Assembly: GCA_016182235.1 (NCBI GenBank)
Contig: JACOXT010000005.1
Coordinates: forward strand, 677 to 64,676
Source of the DNA: Candidatus Levyibacteriota bacterium
Lineage (GTDB): Bacteria > Patescibacteriota > Microgenomatia > Levybacterales > UBA12049
Direction of reading: 5' to 3'
DNA: 64,000 bases
The stretch's first letter is position 1, and every line of letters starts with the position of its first letter. Of the stretch, positions 2,027 to 48,517 are shown in pieces. Made by a program: the position numbers and the translations under genes. The notes under the pieces were generated by a model. That model made no database searches and was not told the DNA's origin. It saw nothing but the letters and a program-made list of their open reading frames with translations.

Positions 2027-2636
2027 CAAAAAAAGACAAGACAACAGAAGGTTCTATAGGATAAATGAGCGTATTTTTGCAAATACGCTTCGAATTTTGG
2101 ATGCAGAGGGAAAGCAAGTTGGGATTTTTTCTAGATTTGAGGCTTTAAAAAAGGCGCGTGAGAATGGTTTAGATTTGGTGGAAGTTGTTCCGATGGCAAA
2201 TCCGCCGATTGCAAAAATCATAGATTTCAAAAAATTCTTATACCAAGAAGCGAAAAAGAAGAAAGAAGAGAAAAAACGAAGTAAGATTTCAGAAACAAAA
2301 GAGATAAGATTAGGGCCTTTTATGAATGACCATGATCTTCAGGTCATGGTGAGACGAGGCACGGTATTTTTGACAAATAATGACAAAATTAGATTAATTG
2401 TAAAATTTGTCGGACGCCAGATTGCACATCCTGAATTTGGACAAGGTATAATACAAAAGGCAATTGATGGGCTGTCTGGTCTTTCAAAAATTGAAAGACC
2501 GCCTCATTTTGAGGGAAAACAGTTAATCGCGATATTATCACCAGAAAGGAAAGGAGCGCAGTCGCCCAAGGCGACGAGCTCGCCTGCAAGCGAACCCGCG
2601 TCAGACGCGGCGAAGCGGACAGGCGTGGAAACCTGA
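2010..2636 (+). CDS. infC: translation initiation factor IF-3
   Basis: RINERIFANTLRILDAEGKQVGIF, NGLDLVEVVPMANPPIAKIIDFKKFLY, IRLIVKFVGRQIAHPEFG; no in-frame ATG near the 5' end (track start TTG 2010), overlaps thrS by 17 nt; C-terminal tail encoded by a GC-rich hairpin block. Confidence 0.92.
   Translation: MIRRFSKKRQDNRRFYRINERIFANTLRILDAEGKQVGIFSRFEALKKARENGLDLVEVVPMANPPIAKIIDFKKFLYQEAKKKKEEKKRSKISETKEIRLGPFMNDHDLQVMVRRGTVFLTNNDKIRLIVKFVGRQIAHPEFGQGIIQKAIDGLSGLSKIERPPHFEGKQLIAILSPERKGAQSPKATSSPASEPASDAAKRTGVET
2556..2630. repeat. GC-rich block of three consecutive hairpins, translated as the IF-3 C-terminal tail
   Basis: gtcgcc-caa-ggcgac (2561-2575), gctcgcctg/caagcgaac (2578-2595, 7 of 9 pairs), ccgcgtc-a-gacgcgg (2596-2610); compositionally unlike the AT-rich surroundings. 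Confidence 0.6.
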
Positions 2637-3776: not shown

Positions 3777-3826
3777 CTAAAAGTATGGAAGAAAGCCTGA
3801 TGCAGATCAAAAACTCTGCGGTTTGA
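3777..3826 (+). pseudogene. duplicated 5' fragment of pheS (upstream 9 nt plus first 13 codons, then stop)
   Basis: 36 nt tatggaagaaagcctgatgcagatcaaaaactctgc identical to 8010-8045; ctaaaagtatg also shared with 7987-7997; copy 1 lacks the 17 nt ataatcttatatttatg of the real locus. Confidence 0.8.
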
Positions 3827-7978: not shown

Positions 7979-8011
7979 TGCAATAACTAAAAGTATGATA
8001 ATCTTATATTT

Positions 8012-9049
8012 ATGGAAGAAAGCCTGATGCAGATCAAAAACTCTGCTGTTTCAATGATAATTGAGGCAGAGGATCAGAAAGAACTTGAGGAAATCAAGCT
8101 CCAATTCTTGGGAAGAAGCGGAAAATTAACTCTCGCAATGAAGGGAATTACCAAACTTCCCACAGGAGATAGAAGAGAGGTTGGTCAGCTTGCAAACGAG
8201 GTCAAAAGAGTTCTTGAAGAATCTATCAACGAACGAAGCAATTCGCTTAAGACTCAAGAGTCAAAAAAAAGGCGCGAAAAAATTGACATAACCAATCCAG
8301 GAGTAAGACCTGACATTGGCCATATTCACCCAATGTCTCAAGTTCTTTACGAAGTAGTTGATGTATTTAAGGGAATTGGGTTTCAGGCGGCTGACGGACC
8401 AGAAATAGAAACCGATCATTACAATTTCGAGATGTTAAATATACCTTCTGACCATCCAGCAAGAGATACACAACAAACACTTTATCTTGATACAAGGCAG
8501 AGCAAAGTCACGCCAGGGGAAATAATTCTACGAACGCAAACTTCAAGTATGCAGGGAAGAATCATGGAAAAAGTAAAACCTCCTATAAGAATAGTTGTTC
8601 CAGGGAAAAATTTTCGATACGAGCAGGTTGATGCGTCTCATGGATTTGAATTTTGGCAGGTTGAAGGATTTGTGGTTGACTCAAATGTAAGACTAACTGA
8701 CCTATTCGGGACAATTGAATATGTGCTCAAAAAATTAATGGGGGAGAAAACTAAAATAAAATTTGCTACGACTAATTTCCCATTCGTTGAGCCCGGAGTT
8801 GATACATATATTTCATGTACTGTTTGTAACGGACGCGGATGCAGTTTTTGTAAATATAGCACTTGGAGTGAAATTATGCCTGCCGGAATGATCCATCCAA
8901 ATGTCCTTAAGGCAGTTGGATATGATCATCAAAAAGTGGCAGGCTTTGCCTTCGCAATCGGGCTTTCAAGACTGGTAACGCTAAGGTATCAAATGGATGA
9001 TTTAAGACTATTGACAAATCCAGATCTAAGAATTTTGGAACAATTTTAA
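8012..9049 (+). CDS. pheS: phenylalanyl-tRNA synthetase alpha subunit
   Basis: HPMSQV, SDHPARDTQQTLYL, LRTQTSSMQ, FRYEQVDASHGFEFWQVEG, GFAFAIGLSRL. Confidence 0.95.
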   Translation: MEESLMQIKNSAVSMIIEAEDQKELEEIKLQFLGRSGKLTLAMKGITKLPTGDRREVGQLANEVKRVLEESINERSNSLKTQESKKRREKIDITNPGVRPDIGHIHPMSQVLYEVVDVFKGIGFQAADGPEIETDHYNFEMLNIPSDHPARDTQQTLYLDTRQSKVTPGEIILRTQTSSMQGRIMEKVKPPIRIVVPGKNFRYEQVDASHGFEFWQVEGFVVDSNVRLTDLFGTIEYVLKKLMGEKTKIKFATTNFPFVEPGVDTYISCTVCNGRGCSFCKYSTWSEIMPAGMIHPNVLKAVGYDHQKVAGFAFAIGLSRLVTLRYQMDDLRLLTNPDLRILEQF

Positions 9050-26819: not shown

Positions 26820-26851
26820 ATTCATAATTCTTAATTCCTGATTCATAATTC
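26820..26851. repeat. 7-nt period array (attcNNN x4-5) between two pilin genes
   Basis: attc at 26820, 26827, 26834, 26841, 26848. Confidence 0.65.
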
Positions 26852-27358: not shown

Positions 27359-28149
27359 TTATATAGGAAATAGGAATCCCAGCATTATCTGCATGATTTG
27401 CTCTCCTAAAAATATAGTTAATAATGTCCCAAAAACTAAAAAGGGACCAAAAGGAATTTTTGTTCCGTGAAGTCTTTTTCTCTTCCATATAATTAGTATG
27501 CACCCGACAATGGCTCCTGTCAAGAACGATATGTACAAGGCAACAGCTATCTTTGGGAATCCCAAAACCAGCCCTAGAAGAAATGACAACTTCACATCGC
27601 CAAACCCCATCCCGCGACCTTTGGTTATCAGAAATAAGAACAAGAAGAAAAGAAAAGCCCCACCCCCGGAAAGCAAATGATTTAAGATTAAAGAATAATG
27701 ATTAAAGAATAGATATGGAAAAGAAACGAAGATCGAGGGAGCTACGATCGCGTCGGGAATTATCCCGTATTTCAAATCAGTAAAAAAAACCACAATTAAT
27801 GACGAGATAATAATAAAATAGTAAACCAAAGTAATATAATCCAAAATTCTTAATTCCTGATTCATGATTCTTGCTCCGAGAAAAACAAATACTAACACGA
27901 ACAAGATTCCCGTTGTTAACTCAACTACCGGATAATACAGAGATAGGGGAGTATGGCAATAGCGGCATTTGCCTCTTAGGATCAAGAACGAAAATAAAGG
28001 AATAAGATCATACCATGCTAAATCTTTCTTGCATTTATCGCAGTGAGATCTTCCTCCAAATACTCCTTCGCCTCTTGGCAATCTGTCAACCAACACATTC
28101 AAAAAACTCCCAATTGCAGTTCCAACTAAAAAGATAAAAATAATCTCCA
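27359..28149 (-). CDS. pilD: prepilin peptidase / N-methyltransferase PilD
   Basis: GSFLNVLVDRLP, Cys-rich CDKCKKDL..CRYC, FTDLKYGIIPD, GMGFGDVKL (two catalytic Asp boxes); track ORF reaches 28243 and overlaps the RAYT gene and a REP; GTG 28149 is a plausible start. Confidence 0.85.
27679..27712. repeat. 7-nt period array read in frame inside pilD
   Basis: gatt/gaat at 27679, 27686, 27693, 27700, 27707; encodes ..NHYSLILNHLL.. Confidence 0.55.
27846..27873. repeat. 7-nt period array (attcNNN x4) read in frame inside pilD
   Basis: attc at 27846, 27853, 27860, 27867; encodes ..RIMNQELRIL.., nearly the same DNA as 26820-26851. Confidence 0.6.
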
Positions 28150-28187
28150 CATACTTAGAATACCATATTTCCTTACGAGTGATTTGA

Positions 28188-28200
28188 CAAGGTCCGACCT
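28188..28200. repeat. REP palindrome aaggtcCgacctt (copy 1, immediately upstream of the RAYT start)
   Basis: perfect 6+1+6 palindrome. Confidence 0.8.
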
Positions 28201-28871
28201 TGCTCTGTAATATATATCCTATGCCTGCCATAAATTCTGTCAAAATTTACGTTGAAAATGGCTATTATCACATTTACAATCGGGGAATTGATAAACGAGA
28301 AATTTTTATAGACCACAAGGATTATATGGTTTTGCTTAGTCTTTTGAAGCGATATCTTGTGCCTTGGGAAAATAGCAAGGTCCGACCTCGTTATAGGATA
28401 GATCTTCATGAAAAAATTCAGCTAATCTCATATTGTCTCATGCCCAACCATTTTCATCTTATGATGAAACAATTCACGAAAGACGCGATTACAGAATTTA
28501 TGCGAGCTTTAACCAATAGCTACGTACTATACTTTAACTCACGGTATGAACGAATTGGACCTCTTTTTCAAGGAAGATATAAGGCCGTTCTTATCGAAAA
28601 GGAGTCATACTTTCTTCATCTTACTCGCTATATTCACACAAATCCGCTGGATCTTGGCTTTACAAGGTCGGACCTTGCAAAGTATAGGTATTCGAGTTAC
28701 GGGGAATTTATTGGAGAAAGAAAGACAGAATGGATTCACTTTGGGGAAATATTAGATTATTTTAAAAGCAAACAAAAAATGAGCGAGCAAGATATACTTT
28801 CGTATCAAAGTTTCGTAGAAGACTCGATAGGGGATTCAAAAGAAATTCTTGAAACACTAAGTATTGATTGA
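28200..28871 (+). CDS. REP-associated tyrosine transposase (RAYT; IS200/IS605 TnpA-like Y1 HUH transposase)
   Basis: YHIYNRG, LMPNHFHLMM (HUH), LFQGRYK, LTRYIHTNPL (catalytic Tyr region), YRYSSYGEF; single gene, no tnpB partner; flanked by REPs. Confidence 0.85.
   Translation: MLCNIYPMPAINSVKIYVENGYYHIYNRGIDKREIFIDHKDYMVLLSLLKRYLVPWENSKVRPRYRIDLHEKIQLISYCLMPNHFHLMMKQFTKDAITEFMRALTNSYVLYFNSRYERIGPLFQGRYKAVLIEKESYFLHLTRYIHTNPLDLGFTRSDLAKYRYSSYGEFIGERKTEWIHFGEILDYFKSKQKMSEQDILSYQSFVEDSIGDSKEILETLSID
28377..28389. repeat. REP copy 2 (aaggtccgacctc, one mismatch) inside the RAYT ORF
   Basis: encodes ..SKVRPRY.. Confidence 0.7.
28663..28677. repeat. REP copy 3 (caaggtcGgaccttg) inside the RAYT ORF
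   Basis: perfect 15-nt palindrome; encodes ..TRSDLAK.. Confidence 0.8.
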
Positions 28872-28876
28872 TTGTC

Positions 28877-28949
28877 CTGCAAGGTCGGACCTTGTATATG
28901 AGAGAATACAGCTTTCCTCTTGAAAACCCTAATTAGGCCCCTAATAAAT
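28877..28949. repeat. 73-bp REP-containing module, copy A
   Basis: ctgcaaggtcggaccttgtatatgagagaatacagctttcctcttgaaaaccctaattaggcccctaataaat; includes REP copy 4 (28880-28894), hairpins tgtat..ataca and attag-gccc-ctaat. Confidence 0.8.
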
Positions 28950-29017
28950 CCATTACTTATTTATTGTACCATTATTTATAAGAGTCAGACTCCTTAGAAT
29001 TGTTTCTATTTCAAGCG

Positions 29018-29089
29018 CTGCAAGGTCGGACCTTGTATATGAGAGAATACAGCTTTCCTCTTGGAAGCCTAATTAGGCCCCTAATAAAT
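29018..29089. repeat. 72-bp REP-containing module, copy B
   Basis: same as 28877-28949 except cttggaagcc versus cttgaaaaccc; includes REP copy 5 (29021-29035). Confidence 0.8.
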
Positions 29090-29231
29090 TCAAGAAAAAA
29101 ACAGGAGTCAACATGTCAAAAATTTAAATCAGCAGGTATCTAGGCTATTTCACCTTTCAGGTGGCAAAGACACAAATAAACAAACAACATTTGAGCCGAT
29201 TATAGAAACTTATTCTTAGAGGATATTAAAC

Positions 29232-29777
29232 CTACTGGACAGCATTACAAGCGACAGCAAAACCTGGATCTGCTGCAGTACACACTAAACATGTTGTGCC
29301 CCTGTTCGCAACCCATTGAAAGAACGGAATATTACCTGCTGAACATTTAGCAATCTCTGCTTGTGACTCCAATCTCACATATACTTGACCATTAGTACCA
29401 GGAGCAGCACCTGCGCGATTATAACAGTAACCATTTTCTACCGCCCCACCCGTACCAGCACAGAATCCAGCCGTCATTGTAGGATTAGCAGGAACAGTTT
29501 GGATCTCACCCGCGGCGATCAATTCAGTTGTAATCCAAGTACCAGCATCATTCGGATAAGCCGATTGCCTGGTTGTAAGATAAGCTTGCACAGCCCTTGC
29601 TAACTGTCCCACACTGTTTTTTCTTCCCGCGTCTCTTGCTCTTGCCAACTGCTGAACTGGATCAATTAGCACTAATACTCCTGCTGCGAGTACTCCCAAA
29701 ATTGCGATTACGATAAGAAGTTCTATTAATGTGAAGCCCTTTCTGGAAGATAATTTTCTAAATAAATTCGTTTTCAT
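29232..29777 (-). CDS. pilA: type IV major pilin
   Basis: MKTNLFRKLSSRKGFTLIELLIVIAILGVLAAGV; Cys-containing C-terminal region; adjacent to pilC; visibly more G+C-rich than surrounding genes. Confidence 0.85.
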   Translation of the reverse strand: MKTNLFRKLSSRKGFTLIELLIVIAILGVLAAGVLVLIDPVQQLARARDAGRKNSVGQLARAVQAYLTTRQSAYPNDAGTWITTELIAAGEIQTVPANPTMTAGFCAGTGGAVENGYCYNRAGAAPGTNGQVYVRLESQAEIAKCSAGNIPFFQWVANRGTTCLVCTAADPGFAVACNAVQ

Positions 29778-37161: not shown

Positions 37162-38325
37162 ATGAATATATTTAACTCCCTTGGCTCAAACTACAATTTG
37201 AAATTTGTTTTATCATCTCTTTTTGCAAATGGTAGCGATAAAGACCGTCAAGATCTTATTCATCTTCTTGAAAAAAAATATAATGGCAAAGCCATACTAT
37301 TATATAAGGGCAGAGAAGCACTCACTCTTGCTATTAAGACTCTTAACCTTCCCCCAAAAACAGAAGCTGCTATAAATGGATTTACATGTTTTGCAGTGTA
37401 TAAAGCTATTGAGAAGGCTGGCTATAAACCAGTTTGCCTTGATCTTGACTCCGATAAATTTGATCTAAACTTTAGCACTTCAGTGCTTGAGGCAGAAGTC
37501 AAAAAAAACCCAAATTTAAAAGTAGTAATTGTACAAAATACGCTTGGGTATCCATGCGATATCGAAGGTATCCTTGAAATTTGCAAGAAAAAAAACCTTG
37601 TCTTAATTGAAGATTTAGCCCATTGTGTAGGAACAAAATACTCCAACGGAAAAGAGGCGGGGACAGTTGGACCTATTGCGGTGTTATCTTTTAGCCAAGA
37701 CAAGGTCATCGATGCGGTTTCCGGAGGAGCTTTAATTATAAGAGAAAGAACTTTAGCTTCGCAAGGCGAGGCCTTGCAGAGTAAAAAGATCAATTTCAGA
37801 CAACAATTAAAAGACAAATTTTATCCAATACTTACTTACAAAATTAGAACATTTTATAGTTTTGGATTAGGAAAACTCCTTCACTTTCTCCTAAAAAAAT
37901 TAGACCTTTTATCAAAGCCTATGGAAGAAAATTTATATGAATTACTTTCTCTTCCTAATTGGTATTGTTATTTAGCCATGATTGGGTTTAATAATTTGTC
38001 TCAAAATCTAAATCACAGAAGAAGAATTGCCCAAATTTACATAGACAATTTAAACAAAAGCGCACAATCAAAAGAAATCGCGCAAAACTTAGATTTATCG
38101 TCTAACTTAAGATTTCCAATTTTTGTTGAGAAACGAGCACAGTTATTAGAATATCTAAAAGACTACGGCATTCATGTTTCAGATATATGGTACGAAGATG
38201 TTTCGCCCGATTGCCCGAACGCACAAAAAGTCTCTCGCAAAGTTCTTAATTTACCAACTCATATCAATGTCAGCGAAAGAGACGCAAGGCTAATCTGCGA
38301 AAGGATTAATGAATTGATCCAATGA
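37162..38325 (+). CDS. DegT/DnrJ/EryC1/StrS-family PLP-dependent aminotransferase-like protein
   Basis: GREALTLAIKTL, INGFTCFAVYKAI, LIEDLAHCVG, VLSFSQDKVI (PLP Lys), LNLPTH. Confidence 0.75.
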   Translation: MNIFNSLGSNYNLKFVLSSLFANGSDKDRQDLIHLLEKKYNGKAILLYKGREALTLAIKTLNLPPKTEAAINGFTCFAVYKAIEKAGYKPVCLDLDSDKFDLNFSTSVLEAEVKKNPNLKVVIVQNTLGYPCDIEGILEICKKKNLVLIEDLAHCVGTKYSNGKEAGTVGPIAVLSFSQDKVIDAVSGGALIIRERTLASQGEALQSKKINFRQQLKDKFYPILTYKIRTFYSFGLGKLLHFLLKKLDLLSKPMEENLYELLSLPNWYCYLAMIGFNNLSQNLNHRRRIAQIYIDNLNKSAQSKEIAQNLDLSSNLRFPIFVEKRAQLLEYLKDYGIHVSDIWYEDVSPDCPNAQKVSRKVLNLPTHINVSERDARLICERINELIQ

Positions 38326-39338
38326 TAGCAAAACCGATAATAGATAAAAAAACCTGGGAATCTTTCCTGGATCTTCATGAAGAAGCAAACTTTTTGCAAT
38401 CATGGTATTGGGGAGAATTTCATAAAAGTCTAAGTAACGAAATTCAGCGAATGGGATTTTATGAAAATAATAAGCTTGTTGGCGTTATGCTTTCTATTGT
38501 TGAAAACGCGAAGCGCGGGCGATATCTAGCAGTTCCAGGAGGACCAATTATCGATTGGACAAGGTCCGACCTTGTCGAGCATTTCGTGCAGGAATGTAAA
38601 AAGATTGCGAAAACATACAAGTGTGTTTTCGTAAGAGTCCGCCCTCAGCTTGTTTCAGATGACTTTTCGAAAAGCTTGTCTAAAAGACAAGGATTTACTA
38701 ACGCCCCAATGCACTTACACGCTGAGTTAACATCACAACTTGATATAAGAAAAACCGAAGATGAACTTCTAGGTCAAATGAGAAAAACAACCAGATACGA
38801 GATTAAAAAAGCAATTAATTTAGGTATAAAAGTAGTTGCCTCCAAAGACCCCGGTCAAATAAAAGACTTTTATGATTTACAGATTGAAACCTCAAAAAGG
38901 CAAGGATTCATACCATTTTCCTACAAATATTTATATGAGCAATTTAAAATATTTGCGCTTAATGATAAAGCGGTTTTATATACAGCTTATTATGACAGAA
39001 AAATTCTTGCTCAGGCTTTTATAATTTTTTATGGGCAGGAAGCTGTTTATCATTATGGGGTAAGTACAGAGGAAGGGAGAAGATATCCTGGCGCCTATTT
39101 AATACAATGGGAGGCAATTAAAGAAGCACAGAAAAGAGGAATGACGCGATATAACTTTTGGGGGGTTTCTCCTGAGATGAGCAAAAACCATAGGTTTAGA
39201 GGTTTATCTCTTTTCAAAAGAGGCTTTGGAGGACAAGATATAGAATATCTTCATGCACAAGATTTAATAATAAATTACCCAAGATATATTATTAACTACG
39301 TAGTCGAAACCATAAGAAAAAAAACAAGAAACGTTTAA
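38322..39338 (+). CDS. FemAB-family peptidoglycan peptide-bridge transferase (FemX/MurM-like)
   Basis: FLQSWYWGEF, TRYEIKKA, YHYGVSTEEGRRYPGAYLIQWEAIKEAQKRGMTRYNFWGV. Confidence 0.85.
   Translation: MIAKPIIDKKTWESFLDLHEEANFLQSWYWGEFHKSLSNEIQRMGFYENNKLVGVMLSIVENAKRGRYLAVPGGPIIDWTRSDLVEHFVQECKKIAKTYKCVFVRVRPQLVSDDFSKSLSKRQGFTNAPMHLHAELTSQLDIRKTEDELLGQMRKTTRYEIKKAINLGIKVVASKDPGQIKDFYDLQIETSKRQGFIPFSYKYLYEQFKIFALNDKAVLYTAYYDRKILAQAFIIFYGQEAVYHYGVSTEEGRRYPGAYLIQWEAIKEAQKRGMTRYNFWGVSPEMSKNHRFRGLSLFKRGFGGQDIEYLHAQDLIINYPRYIINYVVETIRKKTRNV
38558..38576. repeat. REP copy 6 (gacaaggtc-c-gaccttgtc, 19-nt perfect palindrome) inside the FemAB-family ORF
   Basis: same core as the RAYT-flanking palindrome, 9.7 kb away; encodes ..WTRSDLVE.. 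Confidence 0.8.
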
Positions 39339-45274: not shown

Positions 45275-46131
45275 AAATCAATGGATCGGAAATCGCAAAT
45301 AAGATTCACATCGAACTTCGAAAAAAGGTAAAAAAGCTAAAAGAGAAAAAAATCACGCCCCATCTTGCGGTAATTCTCATCGGCAGTGATCCCGCATCAA
45401 CTGCGTATGTTCGGCAAAAAGAATTAAAATCAAAAGCAATTAGTGTTAATACAACAATAGCAAAATTTCCTTCCGGTGTCTCCCAAAAAAATATTTTGAA
45501 AACAATTCAGCAATATAACAATGATAACAATATTCACGGAATTATTGTTCAGCGTCCTCTGCCTTCGCATATTGATTCGAATGTAATCTCAAAATCCATA
45601 GATCCCAAAAAGGATGTGGATGGCTTTCACCCAAAATCCAAATTTCAACCACCTCTCGCTCTGGCGGTATTGAAGATTTTGAAAAATATATTCGTCCACC
45701 TTCGAGGTGGGGTTGCGCCTGCGGCACACCTCGAAGGTGAATTTCGTGAATGGTTAATCCTCCAAAATATTGTCGTTATTGGCAAGGGTGAAACCGGTGG
45801 TAAACCTGTAATTGAAATGCTTAAAAAAATAGGAGCAAAGCCTTTGATTGTCGACAGTAAAACTCAAAATCCCCCTAACATAACTAAAACTGCAGATATA
45901 ATAATCTCTGCGGTTGGCAAAGAAAATACAATAAAGCCAGAAATGATCAAAAAAAATTCTATTTTAATTAGCATTGGTTTGTCAAAAGGAAAAGACGGAA
46001 AACTTCACGGGGATTATGATGAAGACAAGATCAAAAACATTGCATCCTTTTACACCCCAACCCCAGGAGGAGTAGGCCCCATCAATGTAGCTATGCTTTT
46101 GAAAAATTTAGTAAAAGCGTCCGAAAGTTAA
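45271..46131 (+). CDS. folD: bifunctional methylenetetrahydrofolate dehydrogenase / methenyl-THF cyclohydrolase
   Basis: [40 protein letters not shown]; carries an in-frame 44-bp GC-rich element. Confidence 0.9.
45696..45739. repeat. 44-bp GC-rich hairpin element, in frame in folD
   Basis: ccaccttcgaggtggggttgcgcctgcggcacacctcgaaggtg; 13-bp arms caccttcgaggtg / cacctcgaaggtg; exact reverse complement of 48008-48051. Confidence 0.9.
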
Positions 46132-47405: not shown

Positions 47406-48517
47406 TTGGAAAACTTATTCTGGAGGATGCTTCGGAATTTGAAGGCATAAGCTTAGGAGCTCCTCGCTCAATTTCTGGCGAGGTAGTTTTCTCAACAGGA
47501 ATGGTAGGATATCCAGAAAGTTTAACTGATCCTTCATACAAAGGACAAATTTTAATATTTACTTATCCTTTGATTGGAAATTACGGAATTCCCGACAAGA
47601 AGTATTGGGAGTCGGATAAAATCCAAGTCTCAGGATTTATCGTCTCAAATTATATTGATACTCCTTATCATCAAGAAATGACTTTGACTCTAAGAAAATG
47701 GGCAGTTAAAGAGAACGTACCTTTTCTTGAAATTACAGATACAAGATTATTAACTCAAAAAATAAGGACAAAAGGAACAATGCTCGGGAAAATAATCACT
47801 AAGGACAATATTAATTTTTATGATCCAAATAAAGAAAACCTTGTCGCCCAAGTTTCAACAAAAAAAGTTATTCAAAAAGGCAACGGTAAAAAAACGGTTA
47901 TTTTAATAGATTGTGGAGCAAAACAAAACATAGAAAGATCTTTGTTGAAAAGGGGAGTAAGAGTCATAACTGTTCCGTGGAATTTCGATCCATTCGACCC
48001 GAAGGTACACCTTCGAGGTGTGCCGCAGGCGCAACCCCACCTCGAAGGTGGCAGGCTGAAGCAAAGCGAAAGCCATGACTCCTTCGAGGTGAAATTCGAT
48101 GGGATTGTCGTCTCCAATGGTCCGGGTGACCCGAAAATGGCAACAAAAACAATCGAAACCATCCGAAAAGCTCTTGCCTCCAAAATCCCAGTTCTTGGAA
48201 TTTGCCTTGGACATCAATTACTTGCATTGGCGGGAGGAGGGGATACCCAAAAATTAAAATTTGGCCACAGAAGCCAAAATCAGCCTTGCGTATTGGAAAA
48301 AACAAAAAGGTGCTATATCACAACTCAAAACCATGGTTTTGAAGTTTCTAAAATTCCCAAGGGATTTCATAAATGGTTTACGAACGCAAATGATAATTCA
48401 AATGAGGGCATAATCCACCAAAAACTCCCATTTATGTCAGTGCAATTTCATCCTGAAGCCGCCCCCGGCCCCGAAGATACAGGATGGATATTCGACTATT
48501 TCCTGGAAAAAATATGA
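47402..48517 (+). CDS. carA: carbamoyl-phosphate synthase small (glutaminase) subunit
   Basis: GEVVFSTGMVGYPESLTDPSY, GICLGHQLLALA (catalytic Cys), FGHRSQNQP, QFHPEA; carries an in-frame GC-rich insertion. Confidence 0.92.
   Translation: MIGKLILEDASEFEGISLGAPRSISGEVVFSTGMVGYPESLTDPSYKGQILIFTYPLIGNYGIPDKKYWESDKIQVSGFIVSNYIDTPYHQEMTLTLRKWAVKENVPFLEITDTRLLTQKIRTKGTMLGKIITKDNINFYDPNKENLVAQVSTKKVIQKGNGKKTVILIDCGAKQNIERSLLKRGVRVITVPWNFDPFDPKVHLRGVPQAQPHLEGGRLKQSESHDSFEVKFDGIVVSNGPGDPKMATKTIETIRKALASKIPVLGICLGHQLLALAGGGDTQKLKFGHRSQNQPCVLEKTKRCYITTQNHGFEVSKIPKGFHKWFTNANDNSNEGIIHQKLPFMSVQFHPEAAPGPEDTGWIFDYFLEKI
48008..48051. repeat. 44-bp GC-rich hairpin element, in frame in carA (inverted relative to the folD copy)
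   Basis: caccttcgaggtgtgccgcaggcgcaaccccacctcgaaggtgg, 44/44 identical to the reverse complement of 45696-45739; extra arm copies at 47999-48007 and 48083-48093. Confidence 0.9.

What the first reader, a model, noticed from the sequence alone, without database searches (positions are those of the whole stretch)
28188..29089. REP-associated tyrosine transposase (RAYT) with its cognate palindrome flanking and inside the gene
The 223-aa ORF has the Y1/HUH transposase motifs of the IS200/IS605 TnpA-RAYT family (NHFHLMM, RYIHTNP) and no tnpB. The palindrome aaggtc(c/g)gacctt occurs immediately upstream of its start (28188, central C) and twice downstream (28880 and 29021, central G, so inverted). 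Known RAYT genes are flanked by their REPs in this way. Unusually, two more copies lie inside the RAYT coding sequence itself (28377, 28663), and one lies in a cell-wall gene 9.7 kb away (38558). The window also contains at least four other families of GC-rich palindromes sitting in frame in essential genes. The overall picture is a REP/RAYT-like system in a reduced AT-rich genome whose palindromes colonise coding sequence without disrupting it. That combines features of gammaproteobacterial REP/RAYT systems and of Rickettsia palindromic elements, and I believe it is undescribed for this type of organism.
Basis: partly seen in the sequence, partly recalled or inferred. Interest (0 to 1): 0.78.

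Follow-up and report, generated by a model that had tools for sequence, protein, structure and literature searches.

The report
Domesticated transposase carrying own target hairpins
In an ultra-small (CPR, Levybacteria) bacterium, a single-copy transposase-derived gene is flanked, and twice interrupted in frame, by the short DNA hairpin it most likely recognises; this layout is shared and co-evolving across the whole gene family, so it is a noteworthy variant of the known REP/RAYT systems, not a new kind of element.

Summary
CAAGGTC[C/G]GACCTTG occurs at 28188, 28376 (one mismatch), 28663, 28880, 29021 and 38558, against 0 expected by chance. The gene (true start ATG 28221, 216 aa) encodes a Y1/HUH enzyme of the Y-x-x-x-N-P class. 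Its best fold match is E. coli TnpA-REP.

Main results:
- In about 80 homologous loci, each gene has its own hairpin, shared by the 5' and 3' flanks.
- The same locus-specific hairpin recurs inside the gene at only two places, both variable loops: nt ~120-210 and ~420-510.
- Six orthologues lie in an identical pilD | gene | pilin-pilC-pilT-pilB | holB neighbourhood. Their hairpin triloops differ (CCG, TAA, CCA, GCA) and have changed in concert in the flanks and in the gene.
- The 5' hairpin lies inside a promoter whose -10 box ends 7 nt before the ATG, which implies a leaderless mRNA.
- Copies elsewhere are few, about 3 per 100 kb.

The locus is a vertically inherited RAYT/TIRYT-like system (Quentin subclass 2.1-like), not an IS. 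REPs inside tnpA-REP genes and inside other ORFs were already described in other phyla, so this is a new variant of a known kind. The femAB copy is not an insertion. A separate 45-nt doublet element is inserted in frame in carA and folD.

The parts
28184..28213 (+). Promoter-like site: -35 TTGACA (28184-28189), 18-nt spacer, -10 TAATAT (28208-28213). The 5' palindrome fills the -35 and spacer. The -10 ends 7 nt before the ATG, which implies a leaderless mRNA.
   Evidence: Consensus scan. In 52 of 79 homologous loci a TANNNT box ends 6-9 nt before the ATG, with a peak of 32 at -7. TTGACA with <=1 mismatch lies at 16-19 nt spacing in 16 of those 52 and forms the outer arm of the palindrome.
28188..28202 (.). 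5' cognate hairpin CAAGGTCCGACCTTG, in the intergenic region between divergent pilD and the Y1 gene.
   Evidence: DNA hairpin -4.6 kcal/mol, z = -3.3. It sits at the same position (-29 to -35) in orthologues.
28221..28871 (+). Y1/HUH single-strand DNA endonuclease/transposase gene, RAYT/TIRYT-like, 216 aa. HUH = H77/H79, catalytic Y137, YIHTNP, YSSY tail.
   Evidence: Pfam Y1_Tnp 36.7 bits. NCBIfam REP_Tyr_transpos 43.7 bits, below the cut-off of 80. Invariant N76 H77 F78 H79 Y137 N141 P142 in 30 homologues. AlphaFold core matches 4ER8, E = 4.6e-7.
28376..28390 (.). In-gene copy 1 (CAAGGTCCGACCTCG, one mismatch), encoding KVRP in the loop between helix A and strand 2, upstream of the HUH motif. 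It is decaying.
   Evidence: The same loop holds the locus-specific palindrome in 26 of 75 homologous loci. It folds weakly here.
28663..28677 (.). In-gene copy 2 (CAAGGTCGGACCTTG), encoding TRSDL just after the catalytic-tyrosine helix (NP...YxYSSY loop).
   Evidence: DNA hairpin -6.6 kcal/mol, z = -4.5. The same loop holds the locus-specific palindrome in 26 of 75 loci. It co-varies with the flanks in orthologues.
28877..28952 (+). 3' repeat unit 1: cognate hairpin (28880-28894), a tail, and a second small palindrome ATTAGGCCCCTAAT. It starts 6 nt after the stop codon.
29018..29092 (+). 3' repeat unit 2: a direct duplicate of unit 1 (141-nt period) with the cognate hairpin at 29021-29035.
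38558..38576 (.). Dispersed copy GACAAGGTCCGACCTTGTC inside femAB (codons W-T-R-S-D-L-V). It is in frame with no length change.
   Evidence: DNA hairpin -7.2 kcal/mol.

Best explanation
This is a domesticated, vertically inherited HUH/Y1 single-strand DNA endonuclease of the RAYT/TIRYT branch, together with its cognate DNA hairpins: a CPR version of a 'REPtron'.

Shown:
- The enzyme keeps the metal-binding HUH histidines and the nucleophilic tyrosine.
- Its target family is a hairpin with a 5-8 bp stem ending in ..RGGT/ACCY.. and a 3-5 nt cap.
- Each gene carries its own version of this hairpin about 30 nt upstream of the ATG, just past the stop codon, and often in frame in two loops of the protein.
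- The cap sequence differs between orthologues and has changed in concert at all these sites.
- The locus has stayed between pilD and the pilin gene while neighbouring proteins diverged to 50-70% identity.

Inferred:
- The enzyme binds the folded hairpin on single-stranded DNA (lagging-strand template or transcription bubble), reads the cap bases, and cuts and rejoins next to it, as TnpA-REP and IS608 TnpA do.
- It acts mostly in cis. It therefore seeds and homogenises copies within a few hundred bases of its own gene and only rarely elsewhere (femAB here).
- Copies that land in the gene survive only in two tolerant loops and only when they preserve the reading frame.
- Because the 5' copy forms the -35 and spacer of the gene's leaderless promoter, binding or hairpin extrusion there probably feeds back on the gene's own transcription.
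For: Protein:
- Pfam Y1_Tnp is above its cut-off.
- HUH, Y and NP residues are invariant in 30 homologues.
- The best fold match is TnpA-REP 4ER8, ahead of ISDra2 and IS608 TnpA.
- The motifs NHFH / FQ / YIH(T/L)NP / SS and the length match subclass 2.1 in Table 1 of PMC6006769.

Cognate hairpins:
- 66 of 75 loci share a >=9-mer between the 5' and 3' flank.
- The same 9-mers recur in the locus's own CDS in 42 of 75 loci, against 7.6% in cross-locus controls.
- These internal hits fall at nt 120-210 and 420-510 in all but 3 loci.
- GG at positions -4/-3 from the centre is invariant in 26 perfect palindromes, while the inner 5 nt vary.

Concerted change in orthologues:
- Window, L200 and L202 have the cap CCG/CGG; L204 has TAA/TTA; L206 has CCA/TGG; L207 has GCA/TGC.
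- In each genome the same cap is found in the flanks and at in-gene site 2.

Vertical inheritance:
- The order pilD | Y1 | pilin pilC pilT pilB | holB is identical in six genomes whose Y1 proteins are 59-67% identical.
- The window holds a single copy.

Insertions in loops:
- Homologues exist with short loops and no palindrome.
- The same palindrome is read in different frames in different homologues (KVRP, KVGP, RSDL, QGPTL).

Promoter.

Experimental precedent: triloop bases are specificity determinants for group-3 TnpA-REP (PMC8266576).
Against: - No biochemical data exist for this family. Binding, cleavage and copying are all inferred.
- Dispersal is weak: 10 copies in 291 kb outside the loci. 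Mobilisation is therefore barely visible.
- The canonical 5' GT[AG]G foot of REPs is absent.
- The protein scores below NCBI's RAYT equivalog cut-off.
- The sequence profile matches ISDra2 TnpA weakly and does not match 4ER8.
- The centre base flips freely between orthologues. This fits a symmetric double-stranded site as well as it fits a hairpin.
- The femAB copy shows paired changes at a fixed site without any insertion. Simple transposition does not explain this.
- The promoter reading rests on consensus positions only.
Confidence: 0.7

Rival explanations
1. The protein works mainly as a sequence-specific DNA-binding autoregulator. The palindromes are double-stranded operators bound by a dimer. 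The 5' site represses the promoter, and the in-gene and 3' sites are auxiliary operators (looping or roadblock), as with lac O2 inside lacZ. Nuclease activity would be secondary or lost.
For: - The 5' palindrome fills the -35 and spacer of a promoter at a fixed distance from the ATG across the family.
- The sites are perfect two-fold palindromes whose centre base flips without consequence.
- Four or more sites lie within ~900 bp, with regular 17-nt arrays in orthologues.
- Subclass 2.1 proteins elsewhere carry HTH-like C-terminal domains (PMC6006769).
- There are few copies elsewhere in the genome.
Against: - The HUH and Tyr catalytic residues are invariant over the whole family. This argues for retained catalysis.
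- Pfam finds no HTH in the C-terminal tail, and that tail is modelled with low confidence.
- Many homologues lack one or both in-gene sites, so those sites are dispensable.
- The same palindrome occurs in unrelated genes and, in other CPR, as dispersed doublets.
Confidence: 0.15
2. It is an ordinary mobile IS200/IS605-type insertion sequence, and the flanking palindromes are its subterminal left-end and right-end hairpins.
For: - Y1_Tnp domain.
- Hairpins lie on both sides of the gene.
- There is weak sequence similarity to ISDra2 TnpA.
- More distant homologues sit in other contexts, for example between uvrB and uvrA.
Against: - The tyrosine motif is Y-x-x-x-N-P, not Y-x-x-x-Q.
- The protein is 216 aa with a C-terminal tail, against about 150 aa for IS200 TnpA.
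- There is no tnpB.
- The window holds one copy.
- The chromosomal position is identical in six genomes whose neighbouring genes have diverged to 50-70% identity.
- The two flanks carry the same palindrome, not distinct left-end and right-end structures.
Confidence: 0.04
3. The palindromes are produced and kept perfect by a process that does not need this enzyme. One candidate is template-switch correction of quasi-palindromes. Another is an unidentified CPR-wide palindrome-spreading system. In either case the Y1 gene would merely be a frequent landing or retention site.
For: - Genomes of this clade hold several unrelated perfect-palindrome families with flipping centres, some in ORFs.
- The femAB site changes by paired substitutions in place.
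- The exact 15-mer is found in many CPR classes, mostly far from any Y1 gene: only 7 of 119 loci have one within 8 kb.
Against: - This does not explain why each Y1 gene has its own palindrome at four fixed positions, with flank-to-gene matches 7-fold or more above cross-locus controls.
- It does not explain why the GG..CC frame is invariant across the family while the caps vary.
- It does not explain why the cap changes track orthologues.
Confidence: 0.08
4. The in-gene 'palindromes' are a by-product of conserved peptide motifs (VRP, RSDL), and their resemblance to the flanks is coincidental.
For: R149 and L152 are over 90% conserved among the 30 closest homologues. RSDL could correspond to the RAGL of NPVRAGL in classical RAYTs (the RAGL comparison is from memory).
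Against: - In more distant homologues the peptides at both loops are entirely different and follow the flank palindrome of that locus: GDS, GSRPV, TGIIPV, QGEAL and others.
- Some homologues lack the segments altogether.
- GC-rich rare codons are used in an AT-rich genome.
Confidence: 0.02

Closest known systems
TIRYT / 'TIRtron' (Di Nocera et al. 2013, PMC3733652) = TnpA-Y1 subclass 2.1 (Quentin et al. 2018, PMC6006769) = RAYT Group 1 (Bertels et al. 2017, PMC5581495)
   Same: - The motif set matches: NH[YF]H, FQ in place of WQ/WE, Y[IV]HLNP, an SS motif in the tail, and a length of ~220-240 aa.
- The gene is low-copy.
- It is flanked on both sides by the same inverted or self-complementary repeat.
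- Flank sequences are only moderately repeated elsewhere (Group 1: ~12 occurrences per replicon).
   Different: - Quentin et al. found no REP-like structures for subclass 2.1, and the published TIRs share GGGGWSAS. Here the flanks are short perfect hairpins on an RGG-N5-CCY frame.
- Copies also sit in two loops of the ORF, and the 5' copy is part of the promoter.
- No HTH or DnaA-like C-terminal domain is detected.
- The host is CPR (Microgenomates), which was not sampled in those studies.
E. coli TnpA-REP (YafM) with REP/BIME, the REPtron (subclass 2.2; PDB 4ER8)
   Same: - It is the best structural match.
- It is a single-copy domesticated Y1 enzyme flanked by its cognate hairpins.
- Enzyme and hairpin co-evolve.
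   Different: - The CPR hairpins have no GTAG foot and no bulged long stem.
- There are tens rather than hundreds of copies.
- The CPR protein has a longer tail and is not matched by the 4ER8 sequence.
Subclass 2.4 tnpA-REP genes with REPs inserted in the gene (Cyanobacteria, Bacteroidetes; PMC6006769)
   Same: Cognate REPs are inserted in frame within the transposase gene itself, in a peripheral variable region.
   Different: [quoted passage not shown] Here they lie before HuH (alphaA-beta2 loop) and after the Y helix.
- The protein subclass and the hairpin type differ.
- Concerted change in syntenic orthologues was not reported there.
IS200/IS605 TnpA (IS608, ISDra2)
   Same: The HUH/Y1 fold is shared. 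Recognition of subterminal hairpins on single-stranded DNA is the mechanistic model used here.
   Different: IS200/IS605 TnpA has a Y-x-x-x-Q motif, is ~150 aa, often has a tnpB partner, and is multi-copy and mobile. None of these applies here.
Rickettsia palindromic elements (RPE) and intragenic REPs (PMC3733652)
   Same: Palindromic repeats are inserted in frame in housekeeping genes without destroying them (here carA and folD).
   Different: RPEs are 100-150 bp, CGTC-tagged, and have no associated transposase. The elements here are 15-46 nt.

Membership tests
Y1_Tnp / HUH single-strand DNA transposase superfamily (PF01797) | Profile match above the curated cut-off | tested here: met
   36.7 bits against a gathering score of 23, E = 5.1e-9.
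Y1_Tnp / HUH single-strand DNA transposase superfamily (PF01797) | HUH metal-binding motif and a single catalytic tyrosine on the following helix; ferredoxin-like core | tested here: met
   N76-H77-F78-H79 and Y137 are invariant in 30 homologues. The model core (pLDDT 76-93) matches 4ER8, 2XM3 and 2VJV.
TnpA-Y1 class 2 (TnpA-REP/RAYT sensu lato; PMC6006769) | Tyrosine motif Y-x-x-x-N-P (not Y-x-x-x-Q) | tested here: met
   The motif is YIHTNP here. Y137, N141 and P142 are invariant.
Subclass 2.1 / TIRYT / RAYT Group 1 | Motifs NH[YF]H, FQ, Y[IV]HLNP; SS-containing proximal tail; median length ~238 aa | tested here: met
   NHFH, LFQG, YIH(T/L)NP and YSSY are present, and lengths are 216-247 aa. 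They were compared with Table 1 of PMC6006769. The authors' own HMMs were not available, so this assignment rests on motifs only.
Subclass 2.1 / TIRYT / RAYT Group 1 | C-terminal HTH-like domain (Bac_DnaA_C, HTH_23/28) and flanking TIRs with GGGGWSAS | tested here: not met
   Pfam reports only Y1_Tnp. The flanks are RGG-N5-CCY hairpins, not GGGGWSAS.
RAYT (NCBIfam NF047646 REP_Tyr_transpos, equivalog) | Score at or above the curated cut-off | tested here: not met
   43.7 bits against a cut-off of 80.
RAYT/REPIN system (Bertels & Rainey) | Single copy, vertically inherited | tested here: met
   The window holds one copy. Synteny is identical in six genomes. Genome-wide copy number was not testable.
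RAYT/REPIN system (Bertels & Rainey) | Flanking extragenic sequence highly over-represented across the replicon (Groups 2 and 3: 57-140 copies) | tested here: inconclusive
   There is 1 copy outside the locus in 63 kb, and 10 copies in 291 kb across 29 loci. This extrapolates to a few tens per ~1 Mb genome, close to Group 1 values (12). No whole genome could be scanned.
Canonical REP | 5' GT[AG]G tetranucleotide at the foot of the hairpin | tested here: not met
   The bases 5' of the six copies are GA, AG, TA, TG, TG and GA before CAAGG. None is GTAG or GTGG.
IS200/IS605 insertion sequence | Y-x-x-x-Q motif, tnpB partner, multiple near-identical copies, distinct left-end and right-end hairpins | tested here: not met
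Subclass 2.4 'REP inserted in tnpA-REP' | [quoted passage not shown] | tested here: not met
   The insertions lie before HuH and after the Y helix. The motifs differ.

The most novel reading that the evidence does not exclude
The in-gene and promoter hairpins are not passengers. They would be working parts of a self-referential circuit. In this reading the enzyme reads the cap of its own hairpin in its promoter and within its own coding strand, and this sets its expression or nicks its own gene. Hairpin caps and enzyme specificity are then forced to change together. The conserved seat between pilD and the major pilin gene would further mean that the enzyme acts on single-stranded DNA handled by the type IV pilus / competence machinery of these episymbiotic bacteria.
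Probability: 0.12. Interest if true: 0.8.

Novelty: new variant of a known kind. Interest (0 to 1): 0.55.

Why it matters
RAYT/REP systems are the best example of a transposase kept by its host for millions of years, yet what they do is still unknown. Almost all knowledge comes from Proteobacteria.

This CPR branch has several useful properties:
- It offers a very compact natural experiment. The hairpins are short (11-15 nt) with a 3-nt cap that has visibly switched (CCG, TAA, CCA, GCA) between orthologues at one fixed chromosomal site, and every copy at the locus followed.
- That makes the specificity code of a Y1 enzyme, and the mechanism that homogenises its targets, directly testable with a handful of oligonucleotides and orthologous proteins.
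- It gives subclass 2.1/TIRYT enzymes, for which no hairpin partner was known, a candidate substrate.
- It shows that small palindromic elements are a source of in-frame insertions in core genes of minimal genomes.

Tried and rejected
- Peptide-motif explanation for the in-gene palindromes (VRP/RSDL). Rejected, because the peptides follow each locus's flank palindrome.
- A meaningful C-upstream / G-downstream 'inverted' arrangement. Rejected, because the centre base differs at every site between orthologues.
- The femAB copy as an in-frame insertion. Rejected, because 120 homologues have the same length there. Three homologues carry other (near-)perfect palindromes at the same codons. This remains unexplained.
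- Genome-wide census of the 15-mer. It shows only strong enrichment in CPR: 79 of 119 loci by record title.
- Linking the femAB palindrome to the Y1 hairpin in a second genome. The 10-kb look-up around a femAB orthologue (L212) reached pilC-pilT-pilB-holB, but a response-regulator gene sits where pilin/Y1/pilD would be.
- Rfam search of 27800-29400 on both strands found no match at E <= 1.
- The sequence profile against PDB gave only weak ISDra2 TnpA hits and not 4ER8. The TnpA-REP relationship therefore rests on fold and motifs.
- The terminator scan found no T-run after the 3' hairpins.
- The C-terminal 75 residues are modelled below pLDDT 50. No statement on an HTH is possible.
Full report
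**1. What is in the window**

The 13-mer AAGGTCSGACCTT occurs five times exactly (28189, 28664, 28881, 29022, 38561). None of 100 dinucleotide-preserving shuffles gave a match. A sixth copy at 28377 has one mismatch.

The full unit is the 15-nt palindrome CAAGGTC[C/G]GACCTTG. The distant copy at 38558-38576 is a 19-nt palindrome. As single-stranded DNA the copies fold into 6-8 bp stems with a 3-nt loop:

| Copy | Free energy |
|---|---|
| 5' flank (28188) | -4.6 kcal/mol |
| In-gene site 1 (28376, mismatched) | -1.6 kcal/mol, no better than shuffles |
| In-gene site 2 (28663) | -6.6 kcal/mol |
| 3' flank (28880) | -4.7 kcal/mol |
| femAB (38558) | -7.2 kcal/mol |

The ORF is listed from TTG 28200. 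The deposited 100%-identical protein (216 aa, 'transposase, Candidatus Levybacteria', 78.8-kb contig) and all homologues start at ATG 28221. The upstream palindrome is therefore intergenic. It lies 19 nt before the start, between the gene and the divergent prepilin peptidase gene.

The two downstream copies lie in a duplicated ~75-nt unit (28877-28952 and 29018-29092). Rfam finds nothing in the region.

**2. The protein**

- Pfam Y1_Tnp scores 36.7 bits against a cut-off of 23.
- NCBIfam's RAYT equivalog model matches at E = 2.4e-11 but reaches only 43.7 bits against its cut-off of 80.
- In an alignment of 30 homologues (54-82% identity), N76-H77-F78-H79, Y137, N141-P142 and S158-S159 are invariant.
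- The AlphaFold model has mean pLDDT 65. The core (residues 10-130) scores 76-93 and the last 75 residues are poor.
- The model's best solved match is E. coli TnpA-REP bound to a REP hairpin (4ER8, E = 4.6e-7). ISDra2 and IS608 TnpA follow.
- The sequence profile reaches only ISDra2 TnpA weakly and not 4ER8.

The Y-x-x-x-N-P signature places the protein in class 2 of Quentin et al. NHFH, 'FQ', YIH(T/L)NP, the SS tail and the length fit their subclass 2.1. That subclass corresponds to the TIRYTs of Di Nocera et al. and to RAYT Group 1 of Bertels et al..

The neighbours are pilD and a pilin gene. There is no tnpB, and no second copy in the window.

**3. The in-gene copies are a family-wide, co-varying feature**

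I fetched 80 homologous loci from metagenomes (38-57% identity), several from genomes, and orthologues by exact look-up.

| Measure | Own locus | Cross-locus control |
|---|---|---|
| Flanks share a >=9-mer | 66/75 | n/a |
| Flank 9-mers recur in the CDS | 42/75 | 7.6% |
| At site 1 | 26/75 | 3.3% |
| At site 2 | 26/75 | 2.4% |
| At both sites | 13/75 | 1.1% |

The shared flank sequence differs from locus to locus..AGGTCSGACCT....GGAGACTCC....GGGTCTCGCCC....GGTATCATACC....GGCCAGGCC.. and others. Internal hits fall only at nt 120-210 and 420-510 of the gene, apart from 3 loci.

- Site 1 is the variable loop between helix A and strand 2, upstream of HUH.
- Site 2 is the loop between the NP of the tyrosine helix and the Y-x-Y-SS motif.

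Some homologues have short loops with no palindrome. The same palindrome is read in different frames in different homologues (KVRP, KVGP, RSDL, QGPTL). The encoded peptides simply follow the local palindrome. The constraint is therefore on nucleic acid, not on peptide. The segments are insertions into two tolerant loops.

Across 26 loci with perfect odd palindromes, G at positions -3 and -4 from the centre is essentially invariant (25/26 and 26/26). Position -5 is a purine. The inner five bases and the outer arms vary.

**4. Vertical inheritance and concerted change**

Homologues of 59-67% identity (L040/L200/L201, L202/L203, L204, L206, L207) all lie in the same neighbourhood as the window's gene. 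The order is pilD (minus strand) | Y1 (plus strand) | pilin, pilC, pilT, pilB (minus strand) | holB (plus strand). In L040, PilD, PilC and PilT are 52%, 58% and 73% identical to the window's proteins. The gene has therefore sat at one chromosomal site through deep divergence. That is the opposite of an active IS.

Within this orthologous set the hairpin stem ..RGGT/ACCY.. is kept, but the 3-nt cap differs:

| Genome | Cap |
|---|---|
| Window, L200, L202 | CCG/CGG |
| L204 | TAA/TTA |
| L206 | CCA/TGG |
| L207 | GCA/TGC |

In each genome the flanks and in-gene site 2 carry the same cap.

- L204 site 2 is a perfect 30-nt palindrome, GAGGTTAAACCTGGTACCAGGTTTAACCTC, encoding EVKPGTRFNL.
- L206 site 2 holds three direct copies.
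- Units occur in arrays with an exact 17-nt period: upstream at -29, -46, -63, -82; in site 2; and downstream.
- The copy nearest the gene is always at -29 to -35.
- The centre or cap orientation at a given site is not conserved between orthologues.

Experiments on group-3 TnpA-REP show that triloop bases and a perfect stem are specificity determinants (PMC8266576). This supports reading the cap changes as enzyme-target co-evolution.

**5. Promoter**

In the window, TTGACA (28184-28189) is the outer arm of the 5' palindrome. It is followed after 18 nt by TAATAT (28208-28213), which ends 7 nt before the ATG.

Across the family a TANNNT box ends 6-9 nt before the start codon in 52 of 79 loci, with 32 exactly at -7. 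Every other offset has 0-8. TTGACA with <=1 mismatch lies 16-19 nt upstream in 16 of those 52, usually as the palindrome arm. Many others have TTGCAA or TTGCAG from the arm.

I infer a leaderless mRNA and a promoter whose -35 and spacer are the 5' hairpin. This gives an obvious route to feedback. It is inference from consensus positions, not a mapped transcription start.

**6. Dispersal**

Outside the gene +/-300 nt, the locus-specific 11-mers occur 10 times in 291 kb over 29 loci, or 3.4 per 100 kb. The window has one such copy in 63 kb. This is far below classical REP densities but similar to RAYT Group 1.

By record title, 79 are Patescibacteria of many classes, 32 are single hits in large non-CPR genomes, and 8 are unnamed. 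Only 7 loci have a Y1 homologue within the 8 kb held. In Parcubacteria the unit often forms doublets of opposite centre 12-13 nt apart.

**7. The other claims in the finding**

*femAB.* The femAB copy adds no residues. It aligns without gaps to FemA and FemX, and 120 homologues have the same length there. The same codons in three other genomes are a different perfect 19-nt palindrome (GACCACGTCTGACGTGGTC), a one-mismatch version (GACAGGGTCAGACCTTGTC) and a perfect 13-mer. This is an old palindrome that changes by paired substitutions in place. I cannot explain it with certainty.

*Second family.* A second family is real. A 45-nt doublet element is present in folD (45696-45740) and, inverted, in carA (48007-48051). 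It reads CCACCTTCGAGGTGG-GGTTGCGCCTGCGGC-ACACCTCGAAGGTG(T/A), and 44 nt are exact between the two copies. It folds at about -17.7 kcal/mol.
- carA has a clean 28-residue insert there relative to solved CPS small subunits.
- folD has about 9 extra residues.

*Singletons.*
- GCAAGGCGAGGCCTTGC at 37761, in a DegT-type aminotransferase gene, equals the flank palindrome of two Y1 loci from other organisms (L164 and L190).
- The remaining 'families' (2561-2610 in the IF3 tail; 35951 in a Mur ligase gene) are also singletons.

**8. Comparison with the literature**

- Y1 enzymes flanked by cognate REPs or by self-complementary TIRs, and their co-evolution, are known (PMC3733652, PMC6006769).
- REPs in other ORFs are known.
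- For subclass 2.1 no REP-like partner was found.
- Full-text searches found no paper linking RAYT/REP systems to CPR/Patescibacteria.

This is therefore a new variant of a known kind. What is new is the CPR lineage and the short capped hairpins on an RGG-N5-CCY frame. The copies in two other loops of the protein, the promoter-embedded 5' copy, the fixed seat in the type IV pilus cluster and the documented concerted cap switching are also new.

**9. Verdict**

The best explanation (confidence 0.7) is a domesticated, cis-acting Y1 hairpin endonuclease. It seeds and homogenises its target hairpins around and within its own gene.

The main rival is an operator/autoregulator reading (0.15). An enzyme-independent origin of the palindromes (0.08), an active IS (0.04) and a peptide-motif artefact (0.02) are unlikely.

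Noticed in passing
window 45696-45740 (folD) and 48007-48051 (carA): The same 45-nt doublet element (two CACCT-TCG/CGA-AGGTG palindromes with a 15-nt spacer) is present in opposite orientations, with 44 nt exact. It sits in frame in two housekeeping genes. carA gains 28 residues and folD about 9. There is no cognate Y1 gene in the window. A Y1 locus from another organism (L197) is flanked by the similar core CACCTGAGAGGTG.
   Followed up: partly
window 38558-38576; L209/L212 10254; L210; L211: The femAB palindrome is not an insertion. The same codons in other genomes hold different (near-)perfect palindromes, so this fixed site evolves by paired substitutions. The cause is unresolved: in-place conversion, quasi-palindrome correction, or a selected hairpin.
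   Followed up: partly
window 37761-37777: GCAAGGCGAGGCCTTGC lies in frame in a DegT/EryC1-type aminotransferase gene. It is identical to the palindrome flanking Y1 genes in loci L164 and L190 from other organisms.
   Followed up: no
L204, L206, L207 (around the Y1 gene): Hairpin units are arrayed with an exact 17-nt start-to-start spacing upstream, inside site 2 and downstream. Three units (51 nt) keep the reading frame, and each unit is read in a different frame (EVQP / RSNL / GPTS).
   Followed up: partly
L208 4001-4711; L204 12617-12687; L206 5614-6012 and L207 5509-5877: - A 53%-identical homologue in Curtissbacteria (L208) sits between uvrB and uvrA, with lexA nearby.
- L204 has a second Y1_Tnp gene right after holB.
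- L206 and L207 have a 23S_rRNA_IVP/bAvd-like gene between the pilin gene and pilC.
   Followed up: no
window 26826-26846 and 27845-27865 (minus strand): A 21-nt exact repeat, ATGAATCAGGAATTAAGAATT, encodes IMNQELRI. One copy is at the start of a pilin-like ORF and the other is inside the prepilin peptidase gene.
   Followed up: no
window 3784-3819 and 8011-8046: A 36-nt exact direct repeat gives two genes the same first 12 codons (MEESLMQIKNSA).
   Followed up: no
window 2561-2610: The IF3 gene ends in a ~30-residue GC-rich tail beyond the IF3_C domain. The tail contains three small GC-rich palindromes (GTCGCCCAAGGCGAC, AGGCGACGAGCTCGCCT, CCGCGTCAGACGCGG).
   Followed up: no
L212 4851, 6752, 11037, 11061, 11360, 7554, 9897: A related Microgenomates contig carries further perfect-palindrome families with flipping centres:
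- GTCCCGCT[G/C]AGCGGGAC in the holB and Mur ligase ORFs.
- CAAACC[A/T]GGTTTG, three copies, intergenic.
- TCAGGC-GAA/TTC-GCCTGA, two copies.
Such families therefore seem common in this clade.
   Followed up: no
L002, L003, L012, L034, L064, L069, L092, L100, L102 (Parcubacteria genomes): The exact window palindrome forms ~41-nt doublets (CAAGGTCCGACCTTG-N13-AAGGTCGGACCTT) that recur in several contigs of one Lloydbacteria genome. Many of these sit inside long ORFs. ORF calls in these GC-richer genomes were not verified.
   Followed up: no
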